Source: a virus
DNA: 40,885 bases
Direction: 5' to 3' (one strand)
Virus genome (UHGV): UHGV-0869933
Part shown: positions 6,625 through 24,948 of the stretch, in pieces
Layout: every line of letters begins with the position of its first letter
How positions within the stretch are numbered: the stretch's first letter is position 1
Translations under genes and position numbers: made by a program
The notes under the pieces: model-generated
What the model saw: only the letters and a program-made list of their open reading frames with translations
Told to the model about the DNA's origin: nothing
Database searches by the model: none

Positions 6625-6659
6625 GCAGTTTACTCACATCTGACAAAATCAATATAAAC

Positions 6660-6868
6660 AGCCCCTCCGGAGAGGGGCTGGAGAGTGGCGCTATGTGCCA
6701 TTGCATGGTGCCGGGTGCCTCCCGGTGAATTCAGTACCAGCACCTGAATCCGCGATTATCCCATATACCTACTCGCTGATTACCCCTCCGCACAGGGGGA
6801 TTCACCATGCGAAATTTTTTAACAAACTTCCCGCCGGCCAGACAATAATCGCCAGCCTGAATTATGAG
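6660..6868. repeat. Copy A of a diverged roughly 210-bp non-coding element
   Basis: Shares with copy B the hairpin AGCCCCTCCGGAGAGGGGCT, GCATGGTGCC-N-CCTCCCGGT-AATTCAG, GGGGGATTCACCATGCGA and a CCAGACAAT-ATC tail. Confidence 0.7.
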
Positions 6869-7132
6869 CAACGTGGCATTTTACGGGAAAACTGTTTTCT
6901 GCAGTAAAAAGGCCCGCCGGAGCGAGCCTGGAAGGATAGCGGTCATGTGATGCCGGTTTCCCGGTAACTCAGCATCGGTATCTGAGTCAACGTTTTCTCT
7001 ACTGGGTCATTTCCGATACGTTCCGCCTTCCGGCAGACTTTCATCACGTCAGAAAATATAGCACCCTGAGTAACAGGACAGTACTCAGAATTCAGGAAAC
7101 TGTGACACATCCTGCACAGAAAAGCCCCTCCG

Positions 7133-7347
7133 GAGAGGGGCTGAAGTATAGCCTAATTTCTGTCTGTCGCATGGTGCCAGGGGCCTCCCGGTAAATTCAG
7201 CCTGTCTACTGAATTTGCATGTTCTCTGGATCATACACTTTGCCAGATGCCCCGCCGCTGAGGGGGATTCACCATGCGATGTAATTTTTAACAAATTCTC
7301 CGGCAGCCAGACAATCATCAAGCTGTGGAATTGTGAGGTATTTAAAA
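7133..7347. repeat. Copy B of the same diverged element
   Basis: Same block order and orientation as copy A with scattered substitutions and indels; no conserved ORF across the two copies. Confidence 0.7.
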
Positions 7348-7570: not shown

Positions 7571-7647
7571 TGGACCGCCATCGGGGACTTGAACCCCGCG
7601 CAGCCAGCTTCGAAGGCTGGCGCTCTATCCCGATGAGCTAATGGCGG
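7571..7647 (-). tRNA. tRNA-Arg (anticodon UCG)
   Basis: Hand-folded cloverleaf: 7-bp acceptor CCGCCAT/ATGGCGG, D-arm GCTC...GAGC, anticodon loop CTTCGAA, T-arm CGGGG-TTCAAGT-CCCCG, 3' CCA encoded. Confidence 0.8.
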
Positions 7648-7654
7648 TATGTGA

Positions 7655-7730
7655 TGGTGGCCCTTGCTGGATTTGAACCAGCGACCTGGCGATTATGAGT
7701 CGCTCGCTCTCACCACTGAGCTAAAGGGCC
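7655..7730 (-). tRNA. tRNA-Ile2/Met type (anticodon CAU), ileZ-like
   Basis: GGCCCTT-TA-GCTCAGTGGTGAGAGC-G-AGCGA-CTCATAA-TCGCC-AGGTC-GCTGG-TTCAAAT-CCAGC-AAGGGCC-A-CCA; resembles E. coli ileX and the phage ileZ. Confidence 0.8.
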
Positions 7731-7779: not shown

Positions 7780-8829
7780 TCAAACGATTAAATCCTGAAC
7801 TTCCCTGACTGTCTGCTCAAAACGTCCGGTCTCCAGTTCAACGCCAATCGCACGACGCCCGAGCGCCAGTGCAGCTTTTACCGTTGAACCTGAGCCCATA
7901 AAAAAATCTGCAACCAGGTCACCCGGACGACTGCTTGCGCTGATTATCTGCTGCAGCATTTCTGCCGGTTTTTCGCACGGATGTTTCCCGGGATAGAACT
8001 GCACCGGTTTATGTGTCCACACATCCGTGTACGGCACCTGCGCCGTCACACCAAAATACCGCCGCAGATGCTTATATTCACTCTGCAGCTCCACATACTG
8101 CCGGTTCAGTGACGTATACGTATCCACCAGCTGGTGGTGGGGCTTTTCCAGTTCACCGCGCTGATGTTTCTCTTCTGCCACCCGGGCAAACAGCGACTGT
8201 AATTTCAGATAATCGCTTTCGTTCGGTAGCTGCCACTGACTGGCACTGAACCAGTGCGACACCATGTTTTTCTTTCCTGTGGCATCTGCAATCTGTTTTG
8301 CCGTTATCCCCAGGGCCGCGCGCGCATCACGAAAGTAAGAAATCAGCGGGGCCATCACATGCTGTTTCAGTGCACTGCCCTTCGCCGCATACCCGGCATC
8401 TTTCGGACGATACGGCCCCTGATAATGTTCCGCGAACAGAATGCGCTCTGTGGCGGGGAAATACGCCCGCAGGCTTTCCTTGTTGCATCCGTTCCAGCGT
8501 CCGGACGGCTTCGCCCAGATAATATGGTTCAGCACACTGAAGCGTTCACGCATCATGATTTCGATATCAGATGCCAGGCGATGACCACAGAACAGGTAAA
8601 GACTTCCGACAGGTTTCAGCACCCGCCAGAACTGCGCCAGACACTGGTCCAGCCACTTCAGGTAATCATCGTCGCCCTTCCACTGGTTATCCCATCCCTC
8701 AGTCTTCACTTTAAAGTACGGCGGGTCCGTGACTATCAGGTCAACAGAATTTTCGGGTAACGACCGGATAAATTCCAGGCAGTCGGCGTTGATTAACTCA
8801 CAACTGGATATTTTTACAGTATTAAGCAT
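7780..8829 (-). CDS. Orphan DNA methyltransferase (beta-class amino-methyltransferase, N6-adenine or N4-cytosine)
   Basis: 349 aa; DPPY (motif IV) near the N-terminus and FFMGSGST (motif I) near the C-terminus; no restriction endonuclease partner nearby; sits between Q and the tRNAs as in Stx2-type phages. Confidence 0.8.
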   Translation of the reverse strand: MLNTVKISSCELINADCLEFIRSLPENSVDLIVTDPPYFKVKTEGWDNQWKGDDDYLKWLDQCLAQFWRVLKPVGSLYLFCGHRLASDIEIMMRERFSVLNHIIWAKPSGRWNGCNKESLRAYFPATERILFAEHYQGPYRPKDAGYAAKGSALKQHVMAPLISYFRDARAALGITAKQIADATGKKNMVSHWFSASQWQLPNESDYLKLQSLFARVAEEKHQRGELEKPHHQLVDTYTSLNRQYVELQSEYKHLRRYFGVTAQVPYTDVWTHKPVQFYPGKHPCEKPAEMLQQIISASSRPGDLVADFFMGSGSTVKAALALGRRAIGVELETGRFEQTVREVQDLIV

Positions 8830-8960
8830 GGATCATTAAGCCTGTCTCTGATAGGCTCATTCTGCTTTTGCGCAAAGCAGTGGGCCTGAGGTTTGCTTGT
8901 GAACCCAACGCATGAGCAGATGGCTGGTGGGTGCCCCTAACACCCACCAGCCGCCCATTT

Positions 8961-8996
8961 ACCACAAATAAAAAAGCCTTCACTGCGGAAGGCGTC
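8961..8996 (-). terminator. Intrinsic terminator-like hairpin upstream of the methyltransferase
   Basis: GCCTTC-ACTGCG-GAAGGC followed on the minus strand by TTTTTTAT. Confidence 0.5.
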
Positions 8997-9177
8997 TGTA
9001 ACAACCGAACTGATAGTCTGCCAGACCCGCCATAACCAGCTGGGTCAGTATTAACTGGCAGCGTTCGCGTGAAAGGTAAGTATTCTGCGCTATCTCCCCG
9101 ACTGTCGCCGGTTCGGTAACGCTTAATTCATTAAACACCACTCTGGCGGTTTCTGTCATATCCTGCTGTTTTAGCAT
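8980..9177 (-). CDS. Hypothetical small protein (about 65 aa) just downstream of pR'/tR'
   Basis: Internal ATG with AAGGGA RBS; the track ORF's upstream extension would run through the tR' region. Confidence 0.4.
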   Translation of the reverse strand: MLKQQDMTETARVVFNELSVTEPATVGEIAQNTYLSRERCQLILTQLVMAGLADYQFGCYRRLPQ

Positions 9178-9300
9178 GTCTTTTTCCCTTTTCCGGTTAA
9201 CGTGACACACCAATAACTCTTGTCGAAAAAGCCAGCAAGCTGAAAGACAGGTATTCACCGCCACCAGCGCGTTTACTGTACTGACGCGATTTCAGTCATA

Positions 9301-9322
9301 AAAAACCCGCCAGGCGGCGGGG
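9301..9322 (-). terminator. tR'-like intrinsic terminator downstream of the late promoter
   Basis: Minus strand CCCGCC-GCCT-GGCGGG followed by TTTTT, about 45 nt downstream of the predicted -10. Confidence 0.55.
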
Positions 9323-9370
9323 TGTAAAAAATCTTCTAACGTCAGGCATAAAACGCCCATCGTTAGAGCA

Positions 9371-9398
9371 AATTTACCACAGATTCGGGAAAAATCAA
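9371..9398 (-). promoter_or_regulatory. Late promoter pR'-like (-35 TTGATT, 16-nt spacer, -10 TAAATT) with probable qut region
   Basis: Starts 5 nt after the Q stop; the -10 and start region (TAAATTtgctctaacgATGGG) closely resemble lambda pR' as I recall it. Confidence 0.5.
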
Positions 9399-9403
9399 CA
9401 ACA

Positions 9404-10225
9404 CTATCGCGTTACCCTCTTTAACTGCCGCTCCGCCCATGCCTCTTCAATGTCAAACCGAACCACCAACGTATCGTAAAAGCGTTTCACTGATTTTTTC
9501 CACGTATCAAGCGTGATAGCACTCGTCACTTTGCATATGGCATTAAATGCCTCCGTTGATGGCAGCCTTTCACAGCCACGACCACCACAACGCTGGCAAT
9601 CTCTGATAACAGGCATACCACGTTTTACCGACTCTTCACGATGAATGGCGACACCACGCCCACGGCAATCCTTACAGGCGGTGGAAACCTCACCCTTTCC
9701 GCCACACTCCGGACAGGCAACTTTTACCACCTCCCTGACTTTTTTCCATTCTTCCCAGTAAGACGGATACACGCCTTTTGTGCACTTTGCCCACACTGGT
9801 GGCTTACCATCCGGATACTGGATCTTGTTTGTAAAAACCTCGCTTTCAATAAATTTTTTTCCGTGACAGCAGGGGCACTGTTTTTTGCTCGCCGCGCTAC
9901 GGGCATAATCTTCAAACGCATACGAAGCCATAATGCGCATCACTACCGGTTTTATTTCTGCCGGAAGTTTTCTCAACGCCGCCACACGATCGCACCGACT
10001 GAGTGCATAATCTGCCAGTAATTCTGTTGCCCGCGCCCTGTCATTCATACTGATGCCCATTTTCCCCAGGAACGCAGAAAACCCCATCTCAGCCCGATTC
10101 TGTGTCATGCCCTGCGCGGCCATCACATCAGTGATACTCAGCGCATCTTTTGACGTTGAGGCCGATGCATCGGTCAGGCCAGGGGATTTTGGGGAGTAGT
10201 ATTTCGGTAAATCTTCCAGTTTCAT
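9404..10225 (-). CDS. Q: Late antiterminator Q-like protein (zinc-binding)
   Basis: 273 aa with several CxxC pairs; sits between rusA and pR' exactly where lambdoid Q genes lie; family assignment is from context and motifs. Confidence 0.6.
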   Translation of the reverse strand: MKLEDLPKYYSPKSPGLTDASASTSKDALSITDVMAAQGMTQNRAEMGFSAFLGKMGISMNDRARATELLADYALSRCDRVAALRKLPAEIKPVVMRIMASYAFEDYARSAASKKQCPCCHGKKFIESEVFTNKIQYPDGKPPVWAKCTKGVYPSYWEEWKKVREVVKVACPECGGKGEVSTACKDCRGRGVAIHREESVKRGMPVIRDCQRCGGRGCERLPSTEAFNAICKVTSAITLDTWKKSVKRFYDTLVVRFDIEEAWAERQLKRVTR

Positions 10226-10596
10226 TTTTTGACCTGCTCTTCATGCATTATGGGGTAAATCTTCACCCCCAGACGTCCACCAGATACTGGCTGACCACGA
10301 ACGATATTGATTTCATCAAACTGCTCATCGTCCATTAACACTCCCGCATGCGTCAGCGCATCCAGCGGTGCTTTCAGGATATTGTCCAGGTCGCGACGAC
10401 GCTTATCCGGTGGCTCTGCAATCACCTTTATCGCCAGCCTTCCGGACAGGCTTAATTTCAGCCGCTGCTGGCGAACAATAAGCGCCACAGCCCGGCGATA
10501 ACGCTTTCCCTCCTCCGAGATAAAATATGTGCTGCCACGGCGTCGCCAGTAAGTGTTCACCGTCGGCGGGTAAGGTAAAACCAAATCTATGAGCAT
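10222..10596 (-). CDS. rusA: Holliday junction resolvase RusA
   Basis: 124 aa; LPYPPTVNTYWRRRG ... PDKRRRDLDNILKAPLDAL matches the RusA signature; ATGA overlap with Q. Confidence 0.85.
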   Translation of the reverse strand: MLIDLVLPYPPTVNTYWRRRGSTYFISEEGKRYRRAVALIVRQQRLKLSLSGRLAIKVIAEPPDKRRRDLDNILKAPLDALTHAGVLMDDEQFDEINIVRGQPVSGGRLGVKIYPIMHEEQVKK

Positions 10597-10608
10597 CAGT
10601 CACCTCTT

Positions 10609-11655
10609 TTACCCAAGCACGCCAGTTGCAAAGGCGTGATCAAGAAAACGAAAAATTAAATCAACCTGAGAACCATGCTTTTCTTCGAACGCCAGAGGAT
10701 CCGCATGAAGCTCGTTGTGATGCTCCCGACACAGCGGTAGCGTGAAAATATCGTGAGATTTTGTCCCCATTCCGCCCTGACCATGACCAATCAGGTGATG
10801 GGGATCGTCGGCTGGCTTACCACAACACGCACACGGCTGTGTCTTCACCCAGCGTGTGTATTTCTCGTTAACCCAGCGGCGACGTTTAGGTCGTTTCATG
10901 AAAGATTCCGGAGACTCAGGATCAACGGCAATGCTGACCACCGTCTCTTCCTGTGGCGGGTTTTGCTGGTGGGCGTGAGGCAGCGGCGCAAGATTTTTTG
11001 TGCGCTGCTTCAGTATGCTGGTGGCGGTCTGCTCTCCCGGTACGATGTCGCTTTCACGGTACATTGAGCGGATTTTTTCCGCACGCAACCCCAGCGAACG
11101 ACGTAATACCGCTTCCGGTAGCGCGTCCACCACCTGATTGCGGACCGCCCACCAGGATAATTCAGCCAGCGATAATTCCCGTTCCTGCGAGCCATTCATT
11201 GCATGGCGTATGACGTCAATCATCCATGCAGACAGGTTTTGGTGAGCAAGTTGCCCGAGTGATTCGGAGGTCTGGTCGCGCAGCTGGTTGTCGCAGTGCC
11301 AGCACAACACCATTGCGCCGGTACCATAACGGTGAATGACGGTTTCACTGTGGTGATAATCGCCGTGTGGCCACTGGCAGGATTTAACATGGCGCAGTAA
11401 CCAGTCAGACAATGCGCCAGCGCCACCAGCAGCACGAATCACTCGTTCGTCGCTGAAAAATGGCAGTAATGATTTATCCTCCGCCAGCGGCTGGCGAACG
11501 GCAGGAACGACCCCGGACGACAGATTACGCATGCTTTTCGGTTCCGGCTCCACCAGTACCCGGGTATTGTGGAATACTGGCATGGATTCACGGCCCGGCT
11601 TAACGATCACCAGCCCGAGTTCCGGTACCAGAACAGGTCGAAGTAATACCCGCAC
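10609..11655 (-). CDS. DUF968-family nin-region protein (YdfU-like) with C-terminal HNH-like zinc motif
   Basis: 348 aa, same size and position as Qin YdfU; C-terminal CACCGKPADDPHHL ... CREHHNELH. Confidence 0.65.
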   Translation of the reverse strand: MRVLLRPVLVPELGLVIVKPGRESMPVFHNTRVLVEPEPKSMRNLSSGVVPAVRQPLAEDKSLLPFFSDERVIRAAGGAGALSDWLLRHVKSCQWPHGDYHHSETVIHRYGTGAMVLCWHCDNQLRDQTSESLGQLAHQNLSAWMIDVIRHAMNGSQERELSLAELSWWAVRNQVVDALPEAVLRRSLGLRAEKIRSMYRESDIVPGEQTATSILKQRTKNLAPLPHAHQQNPPQEETVVSIAVDPESPESFMKRPKRRRWVNEKYTRWVKTQPCACCGKPADDPHHLIGHGQGGMGTKSHDIFTLPLCREHHNELHADPLAFEEKHGSQVDLIFRFLDHAFATGVLG

Positions 11656-13449: not shown

Positions 13450-13605
13450 TTACTCCTCAGGTTCGTAAGCTGTGAAGACAGCGACCTCCGTCTGGCCGGT
13501 TCGGATTCGTACCTCGCAGAGGTCTTTCCTCGTTACCAGTGCCGTCACAATGACGGTTAAACAGATGACGATCAGGGCGATTAGCATCGCCTTTTGCTGC
13601 TTCAT
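13450..13605 (-). CDS. hokD: Hok/Gef-family type I toxin (HokD/RelF-like)
   Basis: MKQQKAMLIALIVICLTVIVTALVTRKDLCEVRIRTGQTEVAVFTAYEPEE matches the Qin HokD (RelF) sequence as I recall it; the track ORF carries a mok-like upstream extension. Confidence 0.85.
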   Translation of the reverse strand: MKQQKAMLIALIVICLTVIVTALVTRKDLCEVRIRTGQTEVAVFTAYEPEE

Positions 13606-13886
13606 AGCCTGCTTCTCCTTGCCTTTCGGCACGTAAGAGGCTAACCTACGTGTGTAGAGCATAGATATGGCCTCAGATTAATGTTAAGCGTCTTGCCGGA
13701 CGCGTAATGTTAACTGGGGCTTTTCTCTATCTGCCTTTTGGTGTTCATGCCTGAGACAGATAGCCTCAAGCACCCGCTGCAATTCTACTTAACTCTCCTT
13801 TTCCCGCAAACCGTTTTTATCCCCAGCGGCAAATCGAATACACCACCAGCGCCACCGCCATCGCAATTCCTACCGTTGTTAATGCT

Positions 13887-21496: not shown

Positions 21497-21555
21497 TTTC
21501 TGGTGACGTTTGGCGGTATCAGTTTTACTCCGTGACTGCTCTGCCGCCCTTTTTA
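21497..21555 (+). ncRNA. dicF: DicF small regulatory RNA
   Basis: TTTCTGGTGACGTTTGGCGGTATCAGTTTTACTCCGTGACTGCTCTGCCGCCCTTTTT matches the E. coli DicF sequence as I recall it; lies immediately upstream of dicB. Confidence 0.8.
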
Positions 21556-21723
21556 AAGTGAATTTTGTGATGCGGTGAATGCGGCTAAGCGCACGCGGAA
21601 CAGTTAAAACCAAAAACAGTGTTATGGGTGGATTCTCTGTATCCGGCGTTAATTGTTAACTGGTTAACGTCACCTGGAGGCACCAGGCACCGCATCACAA
21701 AACTCATTGTTGAGGGCGCGATA

Positions 21724-21912
21724 ATGAAAACGTTATTACCAAACGTTAATACGTCTGAAGGTTGTTTTGAAATTGGTGTCACTATCAGTAATCCTGTATT
21801 TACTGAAGATGCCATTAACAAAAGAAAACACGAACGGGAGTTATTAAATAAAGTATGCATTGTTTCAATGCTGGCCCGTTTACGTCTGATGCCAAAAGGA
21901 TGTGCACAATGA
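21724..21912 (+). CDS. dicB: Cell division inhibitor DicB
   Basis: MKTLLPNVNTSEGCFEIGVTISNPVFTEDAINKRKHERELLNKVCIVSMLARLRLMPKGCAQ, 62 aa, near-identical to K-12 DicB as recalled. Confidence 0.85.
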   Translation: MKTLLPNVNTSEGCFEIGVTISNPVFTEDAINKRKHERELLNKVCIVSMLARLRLMPKGCAQ

Positions 21913-22100
21913 ATCCAGTATTTGCACTTATTCTGACGGTTTTTCTTGTTTCCGGAGAGCCAGTTGATATTGCAGTCAGTGTTCACAGAACAATGCAGGA
22001 ATGTATGGCAGCAGCAACCGAACAGAAAATTCCAGGCAACTGTTATCCGGTCGATAAAGTTATTCACCAGGATAATAACGAAATCCCGGCAGGATTTTAA
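21909..22100 (+). CDS. ydfD: YdfD-like small membrane protein
   Basis: MNPVFALILTVFLVSGEPVDIAVSVHRTM ..., 63 aa; ATGA overlap with dicB. Confidence 0.7.
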   Translation: MNPVFALILTVFLVSGEPVDIAVSVHRTMQECMAAATEQKIPGNCYPVDKVIHQDNNEIPAGF

Positions 22101-22193: not shown

Positions 22194-24635
22194 ATGAGCA
22201 CTGATAAAGAAGAATTTGCACTATATTGCGAAGCAAAAAATGACAAAGTAAGAAAACGCCTGGGAATTAAAGGTGGTTTTTACTGGACTACAGCAAAAAA
22301 ATTATCTGTTGCAATCTCCCGCTGCATTACCGCAATGGATGACAACGATTATGATGAAGACGACTTTAAAAAACCCGTCCGCGTCAATTTGCCCGTTGTT
22401 GACGACCTTCCGCCAGAAGGCGTGTTTGATACTGAATTCTGCAACCGCTATGAAAAAGGCGGGAAAGATGGCATCACAATGACATTTATCGGCCCTTCCC
22501 CCTCTGTTCAGGACAAACCAGCCAGCACTGACAATACCAACATCAACGGCGAAGACATGACTGAGATTGAGGAGAGCATGCTTCTGCCTGTCTCCGGTCA
22601 GGAACTGCCCATTCGTTGGCTTGCTCAACACGGCAGCGAAAAACCAGTAACGCACGTTTCACGCGACGAACTCCAGGCATTACACATTGCACGGGCTGAA
22701 GAACTACCGGCTGTTACTGCCCTGGCTATTTCGCATAAAACCAGTCTGCTCGACTCGCTGGAGATTCGCGACCTCCACAAACTGGTTCGTGACACTGACA
22801 AAGTTTTCCCTAATCCTGGTAATTCAGACCTGGGACTAATAACTGCTTTTTTCGAAGCATACCTGGACGCTGACTACACTGATCGGGGTCTGCTGACAAA
22901 AGAGTGGATGAAAGGAAATCGTGTTTCACGCATCACCCGCACGGCTTCCGGTGCTAATGCTGGCGGTGGGAACAAAACCGATCGCAATCCGAATTTAGTA
23001 CACACCCTCGACACACTGGATGTGGAGATTGCAGCAGCCACACTTCCGATGGATTTTAATATTTATGAAATTCCGGGCAGCGTTTATCGTCGCGCAAAAG
23101 AAGTAGTCCTGAACAAAGAAAGTCCGTTCAAAGAATGGTCCGCAGCACTTCGTGCAACCCCGGGTATTCTGGACTATTCCCGCGCCGCTATTTTTGCACT
23201 TATCCGAAGCGCACACCCTGAATTTTATCACTACCCGGGACGCCTTCAGGGGTATATCAACGCCTATTTGACGGAAACTGATCACGAGAACCCCAGCAAG
23301 GAAACTCTCACAGCTGCCCGGCATACGCCGGAAAAAGATATCCTGGAAGAAATTAACCGCGAGGTGGTTACTGAGCGTGAAACAGAAGAAGAAAAACCAC
23401 AACCATCTGACGCAATGGCAGGTGAACAGGCAACAACTGAAACAATGGAACCGGATACAACTGAACATGGCCAGAACGCGCAGTCGCTGGATGCTCAGTC
23501 GCAGGTGAGTTCCGCTAACCAAGTAAAAGTCACCGCTGACGAAGTAAACAAAATTATGCAGGCAGCCAATATCAGCCAGCCTGACGCCGATAAGTTACTT
23601 GCTGTATCGCGTGGTGAATTTGTTGAGGGGATTAGCGACCCTAATGATCCGAAATGGGTCAAGGGGATCCAGACTCGCGATTCTGTGAACCAGAACCAGC
23701 ATGAATCGGAACGGAACGACCAAAAAGCGGAACAAAACAGCCCAAATGCGTTACAAAACGAGCCAGAAACGAAACAATCCGAACCAGTAGCGCAACAGGA
23801 ACCGGAAAAAGTCAGCACCGCCTGCGGTCAGAGCGGTGGCGGCAACTGCCCTGATTGTGGCGCGGTGATGGGCGACGCAACATACCAGGAAACATTCGAT
23901 GAAGAGAATCAGGTTGAAGTTCAGGAAAATGATCCGGAGAAAATGGAAGGCGCTGAACATCCACACAAGGAGAACACTGGCGGCAATCAGCATCACGATA
24001 GCGATAATGAAACTGGCGAGACGGCAGATCACTCAATTAAGGTGAACGGTCATCAAGAAATCACATCCACCAGCAGGACGTGTGACCATCTAATGATCGA
24101 CCTTGAAACCATGGGAAAAAATCCTGATGCCCCGATCATCTCAATAGGTGCAATATTTTTCGATCCGCAAACCGGAGATGTGGGACCGGAATTTAGTAAG
24201 ACTATCGATCTGGAAACTGCTGGCGGAGTCATTGATCGGGACACCATTAAATGGTGGCTTAAGCAATCACGCGAAGCGCAATCTGCCATTATGACCGATG
24301 AAATCCCGTTAGATGATGCACTGTTACAATTGCGGGAATTTATCGACGAAAACTCCGGTGAATTTTTTGTTCAGGTCTGGGGAAATGGAGCCAACTTCGA
24401 CAACACGATTTTGCGCCGTTCATACGAACGGCAGGGGATCACCTGCCCGTGGCGTTACTACAACGATCGCGATGTACGCACAATCGTTGAGCTGGGGAAA
24501 GCCATAGACTTCGATGCCAGAACGGCTATTCCATTCGAAGGTGAGCGCCATAATGCACTTGATGACGCCCGTTACCAGGCAAAATACGTTTCAGTTATCT
24601 GGCAAAAACTGATCCCGAGTCAGGCTGATTTTTAA
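22194..24635 (+). CDS. Large putative exonuclease with C-terminal DEDDh (DnaQ-like) 3'-5' exonuclease domain
   Basis: 813 aa; C-terminal IDLETMG ... [12 protein letters not shown] ... [13 protein letters not shown] matches DEDD exonuclease motifs; long acidic, low-complexity middle; K-12 has only a fragment (ydfE) here. Confidence 0.65.
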
Positions 24636-24699
24636 TGTTCAACCCCGGTCGTTGCCCACCAGCTATAGTGGCGGCGACCATGATTAGCGAACGACGCCC

Positions 24700-24948
24700 A
24701 TGGCAAGACTTATTCTGCTCACTGAGTGGGCAAAAGAGGAATTCAGTGAACCGGTCCCTACTCCGAGTACGTTAAGTAAATACGCTAAAGCCGGAATGAT
24801 ATTTCCTCTCCCCAAAAAAGTTGGAAGACGCTGGCGAGTGGATCCGCAAGCTCGCTTTGTCGGAATGGTAAACAAGCCGGAGGTGATCGCCACAGATCAC
24901 CCTGCTTTGAAGAGGATACTGGAAGATGGCGCGCCCGCGAAAATATAA
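24700..24948 (+). CDS. xis: Excisionase-like DNA-binding protein
   Basis: 82-aa basic protein immediately upstream of int, overlapping it by 23 bp. Confidence 0.55.
   Translation: MARLILLTEWAKEEFSEPVPTPSTLSKYAKAGMIFPLPKKVGRRWRVDPQARFVGMVNKPEVIATDHPALKRILEDGAPAKI

What the first reader, a model, noticed from the sequence alone, without database searches (positions are those of the whole stretch)
22194..24635. An 813-aa early-left protein with a C-terminal DnaQ-like (DEDDh) exonuclease domain and no RecT/Bet partner
It occupies the exo/recE position next to xis/int, but its nuclease domain has DEDD motifs rather than the PD-(D/E)XK fold of RecE or lambda Exo. No annealing protein gene is visible between it and the dicB module. 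The long acidic, low-complexity central region (about residues 380-600) is unusual. Its role is unclear; it may act in recombination, anti-restriction or nucleic-acid degradation.
Basis: partly seen in the sequence, partly recalled or inferred. Interest (0 to 1): 0.45.

Follow-up and report, generated by a model that had tools for sequence, protein, structure and literature searches.

The report
RecE-like protein with swapped 3'-5' exonuclease
This common prophage gene encodes a relative of the recombination enzyme RecE whose usual DNA-cutting domain has been replaced by a different nuclease that chews DNA in the opposite direction. It sits in a phage that has no recombination partner gene and appears to rely on the host's RecBCD repair system. 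It is a widespread, database-annotated but untested variant rather than a new kind of system.

Summary
The ORF (22194-24635, +, 813 aa) is real, intact and under purifying selection. At least 80% of it is present in 1245 of 5426 complete E. coli genomes. The rest of the protein is not mysterious, however. Residues 58-615 are 59% identical to Rac RecE residues 50-591, and this includes the "unusual" acidic linker. Only RecE's PD-(D/E)XK nuclease domain has been swapped out. The N-terminal 400 aa fold confidently but match no solved structure.

Across related loci the pattern is consistent. RecE-type nuclease forms carry recT directly downstream, and DEDDh forms never have a strand-annealing gene nearby. 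The DEDDh forms lie in Chi-rich phages of the published "no Rec module / high Chi" class.

The closest stand-alone relatives of the C-terminal domain sit inside Erf–SSB–nuclease–Abc2 recombination modules.

My best reading is a lytic-phase 3'→5' DNA end-trimming enzyme serving host RecBCD/RecA-dependent recombination. Rival readings are defence, scavenging and RNA degradation. It is a new variant of a known kind, of moderate interest.

The parts
22194..24635 (+). Complete CDS, 813 aa plus stop: RecE-family N-terminus, acidic linker and DEDDh exonuclease
   Evidence: ORF list. Identical PGAP CDS 'exonuclease' WP_115188999.1. dN/dS is 0.12-0.37 in all three regions.
22194..23393 (+). N-terminal folded module, aa 1-400, of RecE type and unknown function (orphan fold)
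22362..22760 (+). Pfam PF06630 Exonuc_VIII match, aa 57-189
   Evidence: E=1.7e-35, 123 bits against a cutoff of 25.
23394..24071 (+). Acidic, mostly disordered linker, aa 401-626, homologous to the RecE linker
   Evidence: pLDDT is below 50 for 400-464, 486-538 and 566-626. D+E is 22% and net charge is -29. The DNA is 75% identical to Rac recE over window 23385-24030.
23814..23885 (+). Zinc-knuckle-like motif (S/C)TACG-x6-CPDCG-x-V-x-GDATY, aa 541-564. In this allele the first Cys is Ser.
   Evidence: The motif is conserved in nearly all RecE-family loci of both nuclease types. Only the window, L001, L031 and L032 have Ser at the first Cys. Short beta strands with pLDDT about 60 are predicted here.
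24030..24038 (+). Domain-swap junction: homology to Rac RecE ends here (about aa 612-615, equal to RecE aa 588-591)
   Evidence: The blastn alignment ends at window 24030. The BLASTP alignment ends at aa 615 / RecE 591.
24087..24602 (+). DEDDh 3'-5' exonuclease domain (PF16473 Rv2179c-like / DexA-like), aa 632-803. Catalytic residues are D636, E638, D736, H786 and D791.
   Evidence: Pfam E=1e-67. 32% identical to T4 DexA and 38% to an EcD-like protein. Foldseek top hits are 8kel DexA, RNase T and Orn. Catalytic residue conservation is shown.
21498..21549 (+). DicF sRNA, upstream in the same leftward operon (context)
   Evidence: Rfam RF00039, 76.7 bits.
21619..21912 (+). dicB ORF (the Pfam DicB match covers the last 62 aa); context
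   Evidence: PF05358, E=2e-39. PGAP dicB in the identical locus.
21855..22100 (+). ydfD-like DUF1482 gene immediately upstream (context)
   Evidence: PF07358, E=8e-25. PGAP DUF1482.
24700..24948 (+). Excisionase gene, 64 nt downstream (context)
   Evidence: PGAP 'excisionase' in the identical locus. ORF.
24926..26056 (+). Tyrosine integrase (context)
   Evidence: PGAP 'phage integrase Arm DNA-binding domain-containing protein'. An integrase starts 290-700 bp after the gene in all 22 species-level fused-form loci.

Best explanation
The gene encodes a three-part mosaic of the RecE (exonuclease VIII) family.

(1) The first part is a 400-aa folded N-terminal module of RecE type. Its function is unknown in RecE itself.

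(2) The second part is the RecE-type acidic disordered linker, which carries a zinc-knuckle motif.

(3) The third part is a DexA/EcD-like DEDDh exonuclease. It has replaced RecE's 5'→3' PD-(D/E)XK domain exactly where that domain would begin.

Shown: the architecture, the intact active site, purifying selection, and the fixed position as last gene of the early-left (dicBF-type) operon before xis-int. Also shown are the absence of any strand-annealing or anti-RecBCD gene and the Chi-rich genome.

Inferred: the protein is a Mg2+-dependent 3'→5' exonuclease acting on DNA 3' ends. It is probably made during lytic growth.

Its likely role is to trim 3' tails or flaps on phage replication and recombination intermediates. 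The phage has no recombinase of its own, so those ends can then be handled by host RecBCD–Chi–RecA and by the phage RusA resolvase. The N-terminal module with its linker would act as a nuclease-independent targeting or scaffold platform. It is not a RecET-type two-component recombinase.
For: Architecture.

Active site.

Selection: dN/dS is 0.12-0.19 in the nuclease domain, 0.14-0.34 in the N-terminus and 0.26-0.37 in the linker.

Partner pattern: of 80 viral loci, 72 have the DEDDh form and none of these has RecT, Bet, Exo, Gam, Erf or Abc2 within 10 kb. The 3 Rac-type PD-(D/E)XK loci all have recT immediately downstream. The same absence holds in 22 fused-form loci from about 12 Enterobacteriaceae genera.

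Chi: the window has 13 Chi sites against 1.66 expected, and 0 of 100 shuffles reach 13. DEDDh loci have 3.87 Chi per 10 kb and RecE-type loci have 1.09. This fits the 'no Rec module / high Chi' lambdoid class, which grows better with RecBCD (PMC12315714; also PMC3784561).

Link of the nuclease clade to recombination: stand-alone 182-aa homologues are 55-58% identical and start [12 protein letters not shown], which aligns with the fusion point. They lie in strand-annealing (Erf) – SSB – DEDDh – Abc2 modules. PMC12315714 describes such DnaQ-type Rec-module nucleases.

RusA: a resolvase gene is present at 10222-10596.

3'-exonuclease trimming of 3' tails is needed for RecBCD entry at some breaks; I state this from my own knowledge of the E. 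coli ExoI/SbcCD literature and did not check it here.
Against: No biochemical or genetic data exist for this protein. The substrate (DNA or RNA) and the polarity are inferred from homology alone. The founding Pfam member, Rv2179c, is an exoribonuclease.

3'→5' ssDNA exonucleases usually inhibit homologous recombination by destroying the invading 3' tail (noted in PMC12315714). A pro-recombination role is therefore not obvious.

PMC12315714 states that DnaQ-type nuclease genes near int often occur in genomes that also carry a separate Rec module, and it does not count them as Rec-module genes.

My locus sets are dominated by closely related prophages, so the counts are not independent. The RecE-type control group is only 5 loci.

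The annealing-protein search covered RecT, Bet and Erf seeds plus Pfam on selected ORFs. A novel annealing protein could have been missed; for example, a 216-aa ORF found in 22 loci has no Pfam hit.

The first Cys of the zinc knuckle is Ser in this allele.
Confidence: 0.4

Rival explanations
1. Inter-phage defence or exclusion nuclease of the 'HREX' type. Like E. coli EcD, the DEDDh domain would selectively digest modified (5hmC) DNA of superinfecting T-even phages and so protect the lysogen or the infected cell.
For: The C-terminal domain is 38% identical (E=1e-37) to a 189-aa EcD-like protein. I recovered that protein from the published EcD primers, and it has Ala78 as the paper reports. The domain is 32% identical to T4 DexA. 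EcD is reported to digest T4 DNA and to block T4 (PMC12153337). An aromatic residue (Tyr756) sits at the DexA W152 position. EcD itself lies in an integrase-bearing mobile element.
Against: The gene is embedded at the end of the repressor-controlled lytic early-left operon, and no convincing promoter of its own was found. PADLOC gives no hit. The DexA D90 position is Asp708 here, whereas the change to Ala at that position is what defines EcD. The DexA D169 region falls in a gap of the alignment. The nearest stand-alone relatives (55-58% identity) are in recombination modules, not defence islands. The 630-aa RecE-type N-terminus has no counterpart in EcD.
Confidence: 0.15
2. Host-takeover or scavenging nuclease like T4 DexA. 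It would degrade host or fragmented DNA, or oligonucleotides, to supply nucleotides during lytic growth.
For: It belongs to the same Pfam family and fold as DexA. It is probably expressed in the lytic early operon (context).
Against: Temperate lambdoid phages are not known to degrade the host chromosome. The conserved large N-terminal module and the fixed position next to xis/int are not explained. The clade is linked to Rec modules.
Confidence: 0.1
3. RNA-directed or signal-directed exonuclease. This would be a 3'→5' exoribonuclease (like Rv2179c, RNase T or Orn) that processes phage or host transcripts such as the dicBF/pL mRNA. Alternatively it would destroy oligonucleotide or ssDNA immune signals as an anti-defence function.
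For: The Pfam family is named for the exoribonuclease Rv2179c. The structural neighbours include RNase T and oligoribonucleases. The gene is co-transcribed with the DicF sRNA locus.
Against: The closest characterised relatives by sequence (DexA, EcD) are DNases (PMC12153337).
Confidence: 0.1
4. A RecET-like recombinase after all. The protein would cooperate with an unrecognised phage annealing protein, or with a RecT/Bet supplied by another resident prophage, and act as the nuclease half of a two-component system.
For: The N-terminus and linker are those of RecE. E. coli genomes carry a median of 2 and up to 9 matching places per genome, so other prophages could supply partners. Stand-alone homologues of the nuclease do pair with Erf-type proteins.
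Against: RecE binds RecT through its nuclease domain, which is absent here; this is from my own knowledge of the RecE/RecT literature. No annealing-protein gene is found in 72 plus 22 loci. The nuclease has the opposite polarity to all known SynExo nucleases.
Confidence: 0.08

Closest known systems
RecE (exodeoxyribonuclease VIII) of the E. coli Rac prophage
   Same: Aa 58-615 are 59% identical to RecE aa 50-591. [quoted passage not shown] Both lie in the early-left operon of a lambdoid prophage near xis/int.
   Different: The C-terminal PD-(D/E)XK 5'→3' dsDNA exonuclease domain (PDB 3H4R) is absent and is replaced by a DEDDh domain. There is no recT downstream. The protein scores 945 bits against the equivalog cutoff of 1269. 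The first 57 aa differ.
T4 DexA (exonuclease A; PDB 8KEL/8KEN)
   Same: Same Pfam family (PF16473). 32% identity, all DEDDh residues aligned, and the best structural match.
   Different: DexA is a stand-alone 227-aa protein with extra loops and a dimer/tetramer switch (PMC12153337). Here the domain is the C-terminus of an 813-aa protein. The DexA S87 position is Pro, the W152 position is Tyr, and the D169 region is missing.
EcD / 'HREX' exonuclease of an E. coli mobile element (PMC12153337)
   Same: 38% identity over 183 aa, with the same catalytic set. Both are encoded on integrase-bearing elements.
   Different: EcD is a stand-alone protein of 189 aa. EcD has Ala78 where this protein keeps Asp708. 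No defence phenotype is known for the fused protein, and PADLOC gives no hit.
Stand-alone DnaQ-type nucleases of lambdoid/P22-like Rec modules (for example phage epsilon34, PMC12315714)
   Same: These are the closest homologues of the C-terminal domain (55-58% identity). They start at the residue that aligns with the fusion point ([12 protein letters not shown]).
   Different: They are about 182 aa and are flanked by a strand-annealing gene (Erf or another), SSB and Abc2. The fused form has none of these neighbours.
YdfE-type exonuclease (the K-12 Qin ydfE pseudogene is its truncated N-terminus)
   Same: Same locus (dicB–ydfD–gene–int). The linker and DEDDh domain are nearly identical from about aa 440 onward.
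   Different: The first ~245 aa are unrelated to the RecE N-terminus, and there is no PF06630 hit. It is a sister mosaic.

Membership tests
RecE / exodeoxyribonuclease VIII (NCBIfam NF007259 equivalog) | N-terminal Exonuc_VIII region (Pfam PF06630) and homology to the RecE N-terminus and linker | tested here: met
   PF06630 E=1.7e-35. 59% identity to RecE aa 50-591.
RecE / exodeoxyribonuclease VIII (NCBIfam NF007259 equivalog) | Full-length match above the curated equivalog cutoff | tested here: not met
   945 bits against a cutoff of 1269. Only model positions 1-602 of 877 align.
RecE / exodeoxyribonuclease VIII (NCBIfam NF007259 equivalog) | C-terminal PD-(D/E)XK 5'→3' exonuclease domain | tested here: not met
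   No alignment to RecE aa 592-866. No PDB sequence hit to the RecE structure. phmmer with the RecE C-terminus detects other family members, so the approach works, and the same seed finds nothing in the window by tblastn.
RecE / exodeoxyribonuclease VIII (NCBIfam NF007259 equivalog) | Adjacent RecT-type annealing protein gene (two-component SynExo arrangement) | tested here: not met
   xis starts 64 nt downstream. There is no RecT, Bet or Erf in the window or in 72 plus 22 related loci, while the 3 Rac-type RecE loci all have recT.
DEDDh (DnaQ-like) exonucleases, Rv2179c-like/DexA family (PF16473) | Profile match above the gathering score | tested here: met
   227.7 bits against a cutoff of 27, E=1e-67, covering profile positions 2-177 of 177.
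DEDDh (DnaQ-like) exonucleases, Rv2179c-like/DexA family (PF16473) | Catalytic D-E-D-H-D residues in motifs ExoI, ExoII and ExoIII | tested here: met
   D636/E638 (MIDLETMG), D736 (NFDNTIL) and H786/D791 (HNALDDA) are aligned with DexA and conserved in 14 of the 15 fused-form or fragment representatives aligned.
DEDDh (DnaQ-like) exonucleases, Rv2179c-like/DexA family (PF16473) | RNase H-like fold matching solved DEDDh enzymes | tested here: met
   In the AF2 model, aa 630-810 mostly have block-mean pLDDT of 74-93, with a dip to 58-67 around aa 680-700. Foldseek probability is 1.00 to 8kel, 2f96, 3v9w, 5cy4 and 8h2f.
DEDDh (DnaQ-like) exonucleases, Rv2179c-like/DexA family (PF16473) | 3'→5' exonuclease activity and its substrate (DNA or RNA) | not testable with these tools
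   Requires an enzyme assay.
HREX / EcD anti-phage exonuclease (PMC12153337) | Stand-alone DexA homologue lacking the tetramer-forming Asp (DexA D90 changed to Ala) | tested here: not met
   The domain is fused to 630 aa. The equivalent residue is Asp708 in two independent alignments.
HREX / EcD anti-phage exonuclease (PMC12153337) | 5hmC-recognition residues (DexA W152 and D169 equivalents) | tested here: inconclusive
   The W152 position is Tyr756. The D169 region falls in a gap of the alignment.
HREX / EcD anti-phage exonuclease (PMC12153337) | Protection against T4 / digestion of modified DNA | not testable with these tools
   Requires plaque and nuclease assays. PADLOC 2.0 has no model that hits the protein.
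'No Rec module / high Chi' lambdoid phages (LLS functional type, PMC12315714) – a property of the host phage | No strand-annealing, SSB, Exo or anti-RecBCD genes in the early-left operon | tested here: met
   Pfam scans of the ORFs between cI and int and of the nin region. tblastn with RecT, Bet, Exo, Gam, Erf and Abc2 finds nothing. SSB was not searched for with an explicit seed.
'No Rec module / high Chi' lambdoid phages (LLS functional type, PMC12315714) – a property of the host phage | Chi (GCTGGTGG) over-representation | tested here: met
   13 sites against 1.66 expected, and 0 of 100 shuffles reach 13. Related loci have 3.87 per 10 kb with strand bias.

The most novel reading that the evidence does not exclude
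The RecE N-terminal domain plus linker, whose role has stayed unknown since RecE was described, may be an autonomous and nuclease-agnostic platform. It would bring whichever nuclease is attached to DNA ends, to the replisome or to RecBCD. In its DEDDh-fused form it would act as a single-protein 'Rec module' for Chi-rich lambdoid phages. By trimming 3' ends it would let the host RecBCD–Chi–RecA pathway process phage DNA. That would be a third phage recombination strategy, beside encoding a SynExo pair and relying passively on the host.
Probability: 0.15. Interest if true: 0.7.

Novelty: new variant of a known kind. Interest (0 to 1): 0.42.

Why it matters
RecE/RecT is a workhorse of recombineering, yet the 600-aa N-terminal part of RecE has no known function. 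[quoted passage not shown] Here the same N-terminus and linker are maintained under purifying selection across at least 12 enterobacterial genera. In these proteins it is attached to a nuclease of a different fold and opposite polarity, and no RecT is present. This shows that the N-terminal module has a job independent of RecT and of 5'→3' resection, and it supplies a natural domain-swap series for testing that job: PD-(D/E)XK forms, DEDDh forms and forms without a recognised nuclease domain. [quoted passage not shown] Practically, many public records name this protein 'exodeoxyribonuclease VIII', which implies the wrong fold and, if the homology-based inference is correct, the wrong polarity.

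Tried and rejected
(1) Decaying remnant: rejected. The ORF is intact, the catalytic residues are intact, and dN/dS is 0.12-0.37 in every region.

(3) Defence-system membership: PADLOC gives no hit.

(4) The first homologous-protein search returned only 99-100% identical and mostly partial E. coli entries, so it was useless for diversity. The representative search was used instead.

(5) Other domains fused to the RecE N-terminus: 43 further long homologues have only PF06630, apart from one RecT fusion and one DUF3799. Many of these may be truncated at contig ends.

(6) I guessed that K-12 ydfE was the remnant of this exact gene. That was wrong: ydfE matches the sister form with a different N-terminus.

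(7) Own promoter or terminator around the gene: the scan is at background level and nothing is convincing on the + strand upstream.

(8) Two literature searches were wasted or rejected because of term matching. The supplements of PMC12315714 are not held.

(9) The EcD accession could not be fetched. The sequence was inferred from the primers. The reverse primer differs from the recovered ORF by one extra A, so identity with HAK9828821.1 is probable but not proven.
Full report
**The observation.** The window has an uninterrupted 813-codon ORF at 22194..24635 on the + strand.
- An identical gene is annotated 'exonuclease' by PGAP in E. coli chromosomes.
- Parts of the gene are found in 4744 of 5426 complete E. 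coli genomes. At least 80% of it is found in 1245 genomes.
- Four sequenced coliphages carry it at 97-99% identity under the name 'exodeoxyribonuclease VIII'.
- The window reads like the phage-form map of a lambdoid phage. The order is tape measure to J, tail fibre, attP region, int, xis, this gene, ydfD, dicB, DicF, ydfC/B/A-like, repressor, replication, nin, RusA, Q and lysis.
- The gene is therefore the last and by far the largest gene of a short dicBF-type early-left operon. The xis gene starts 64 nt after its stop.

**Domain anatomy.** Pfam finds two domains: PF06630 Exonuc_VIII at aa 57-189 (E=1.7e-35) and PF16473 'Rv2179c-like 3'-5' exoribonuclease' at aa 632-803 (E=1e-67).
- The NCBIfam RecE equivalog aligns only to its positions 1-602 of 877 and stays below its cutoff.
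- BLASTP against K-12 Rac RecE gives 59% identity for aa 58-615 against RecE aa 50-591, and nothing beyond that.
- At the DNA level the homology stops at window 24030, which is aa 612 and RecE aa 588. This is where the minimal RecE nuclease domain begins.
- A PDB sequence search hits only T4 DexA (8KEL/8KEN) and not the RecE nuclease structure.

**Structure prediction.** AlphaFold2 with 46 homologues gives three regions.
- Aa 1-400 form a confident N-terminal region.
- Aa 400-626 are mostly disordered. They are acidic (22% D+E, net charge -29) with two small ordered islands.
- Aa 630-810 form a compact domain. Its best PDB matches are DexA, RNase T, oligoribonucleases and a Cas2-DnaQ domain.
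- The DEDDh residues are D636, E638, D736, H786 and D791. They are all present. They are conserved in 14 of the 15 fused-form or fragment cluster representatives aligned, and also in the stand-alone EcD-like protein and T4 DexA.

The DEDDh call, the position and the missing partner are all correct. The protein is not foreign to RecE, however. It is RecE's N-terminus and linker with a different nuclease attached.
- The 'unusual' acidic centre is the RecE linker, 75% identical at the nucleotide level.
- That linker contains a strongly conserved CxxCG-x6-CPDCG-x-V-x-GDATY knuckle, found in both nuclease types.
- In this allele the first Cys of the knuckle is Ser (aa 541).

**Family census.** A search of 1.84 billion cluster representatives with aa 1-620 finds only 264 relatives, so the family is small.
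- Among the best 150 relatives, 19 carry the DEDDh C-terminus and 21 carry a RecE-type PD-(D/E)XK C-terminus.
- A further 43 long relatives show no other Pfam domain, apart from one RecT fusion and one DUF3799. This fits the nuclease-less 'RecE-2' proteins mentioned in PMC12315714.
- A sister form (P0128, 823 aa) shares the linker and DEDDh domain almost identically but has a different N-terminus.
- The K-12 Qin pseudogene ydfE is the first 256 aa of that sister form, cut by IS2.
- The fused architecture occurs in Escherichia, Shigella, Citrobacter, Klebsiella, Kluyvera, Pluralibacter, Phytobacter, Kosakonia, Enterobacter, Leclercia, Atlantibacter and Dryocola.
- An integrase gene always starts 290-700 bp downstream, even though the integrase type varies.
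- dN/dS against homologues is 0.14-0.34 for the N-terminus, 0.26-0.37 for the linker and 0.12-0.19 for the nuclease. All three parts are therefore maintained by selection.

**Partners and genome style.** I examined 80 viral-contig loci.
- The 72 loci with the DEDDh form have no RecT, Bet, lambda Exo, Gam, Erf or Abc2 within up to 10 kb.
- The three Rac-type RecE loci all have recT directly downstream.
- Pfam scans of the window's nin and early-left ORFs, and of recurrent upstream ORFs in related loci, show no strand-annealing protein.
- The window has 13 Chi octamers against 1.66 expected, and 0 of 100 shuffles reach 13.
- DEDDh-form loci average 3.87 Chi per 10 kb with a 4:1 strand bias. Five RecE-type loci average 1.09 per 10 kb. 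These loci are related to each other, so the comparison is descriptive only.
- This places the phage in the 'no Rec module / high Chi' lambdoid class of Zheng et al. 2025 (PMC12315714), foreshadowed by Bobay et al. 2013 (PMC3784561). Such phages are proposed to depend on host RecBCD.
- The Zheng paper also notes sporadic DnaQ-type nuclease genes next to int and does not assign them a role.

**Where the nuclease domain comes from.** Its nearest stand-alone relatives are 182-183 aa and 55-58% identical. They begin [12 protein letters not shown], which aligns with the fusion point [12 protein letters not shown].
- These relatives lie in textbook recombination modules: strand-annealing protein (Erf or another) – SSB – DEDDh – Abc2-like.
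- The C-terminal domain thus looks like a Rec-module nuclease grafted onto the RecE N-terminus and linker.
- More distant characterised relatives are T4 DexA (32% identity) and E. coli 'EcD' (38% identity to the sequence I reconstructed from the published primers).
- EcD is reported to digest 5hmC DNA and to block T4 (PMC12153337). The fused protein keeps Asp at the position whose change to Ala defines EcD. PADLOC has no hit for it.

**Mechanism.** The following are shown:
- a RecE-family mosaic with an intact DEDDh active site;
- conservation under purifying selection;
- absence of strand-annealing and anti-RecBCD genes;
- a Chi-rich genome, and a RusA resolvase gene in the nin region.

The following are inferred:
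- The protein is a 3'→5' DNA exonuclease.
- It is probably made in lytic growth, because it lies in the repressor-controlled early-left operon and no convincing promoter of its own was found.
- It trims 3' tails or flaps so that phage DNA ends can enter the host RecBCD–Chi–RecA pathway.
- The N-terminus and linker serve as a targeting or scaffold module.

I give about 0.95 to the architecture, about 0.7 to DNA 3'→5' exonuclease activity, and about 0.3-0.4 to the specific biological role. The rivals are HREX-like exclusion of modified-DNA phages, DexA-like scavenging, RNA or signal degradation, and cooperation with an unlinked annealing protein. They are listed with their tests.

**Novelty and score.** The architecture is already present in sequence databases and is auto-annotated under conflicting names: 'exonuclease', 'RecE family exodeoxyribonuclease', '3'-5' exoribonuclease' and 'exodeoxyribonuclease VIII'. 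I found no paper that describes or tests the RecE-N/DEDDh swap. It is best called a new variant of a known kind. Its main value is as a natural experiment on the long-unexplained RecE N-terminal domain, and as a candidate factor in Chi-dependent lambdoid phages. Interest is 0.42.

Noticed in passing
window 26675-27127 (-): A 150-aa ORF lies in the b-region between attP/int and the tail-fibre genes. It matches Pfam PF05526, the Rhodococcus equi virulence-associated protein (Vap) family, at E=5e-34. This is an unexpected family for a coliphage moron.
   Followed up: no
window 23814-23885 (+); also L023, L025 and L028 (for example L028 5187-6167, - strand): The zinc-knuckle motif CxxCG-x6-CPDCG-x-V-x-GDATY in the RecE-family linker is almost invariant across loci of both nuclease types. 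The same motif forms the C-terminal tail of a Dam-like methyltransferase encoded next to the EcD-like exonuclease, which suggests a portable module. In the window allele (and in L001, L031, L032) the first Cys is Ser.
   Followed up: partly
L172 4079-4999 (E. coli K-12 Qin, ydfE) and protein P0128: The K-12 pseudogene ydfE is 99% identical to the first 256 aa of an 823-aa exonuclease. That protein has a non-RecE N-terminus but the same linker and DEDDh domain as the window protein. In K-12 it is truncated by IS2E.
   Followed up: yes
L134 8877-10549; L138 168-1029; L144, L149 and L153 around 8700-10900: Stand-alone 182-aa DEDDh exonucleases, 55-58% identical to the window's C-terminal domain, sit in strand-annealing (Erf or another) – SSB – DEDDh – Abc2-like recombination modules in several Enterobacterales prophages.
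   Followed up: partly
window, 13 sites (for example 8124-8137, 8923-8951, 10965-11024, 24067-24074, 24656-24663): Chi (GCTGGTGG) occurs 13 times against 1.66 expected, with 9 sites on the - strand. Two sites flank the end of the exonuclease gene. Related loci show the same enrichment and a 4:1 strand bias.
   Followed up: partly
window 21498-21549 (+), 13600-13775 (-), 6650-6838 and 7114-7307 (-), 7571-7730 (-): Rfam and ARAGORN find the DicF sRNA, a sok antitoxin RNA (hok/sok-type module in the nin region), two copies of sRNA STnc100, and tRNA-Arg(TCG) plus tRNA-Met(CAT) upstream of Q.
   Followed up: no
L112 (JAGZPX010000007.1, labelled a Veillonella parvula MAG): A 94%-identical copy of the whole gene, with an integrase downstream, sits on a 22.9-kb contig binned as Veillonella parvula. 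This is most likely a mis-binned Escherichia prophage contig.
   Followed up: no
L069 8110-8757 (+) and 21 other related loci: A recurrent 216-aa early-left ORF (MEFKDLPPSIQEIAAHTLRHRLNELE…) lies 1-2 kb upstream of the exonuclease gene in 22 loci. It has no Pfam match and is absent from the window. It is an untested candidate for an unrecognised partner.
   Followed up: partly
window 10222-10596 (-) and 7780-8829 (-): The window has a RusA-family Holliday-junction resolvase gene in the nin region and a 349-aa ORF that looks like a DNA methyltransferase near the tRNAs. I made the methyltransferase assignment by eye from its N-terminal sequence in the ORF list, not with a tool. The resolvase is relevant to a phage that depends on host RecA-type recombination.
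   Followed up: no
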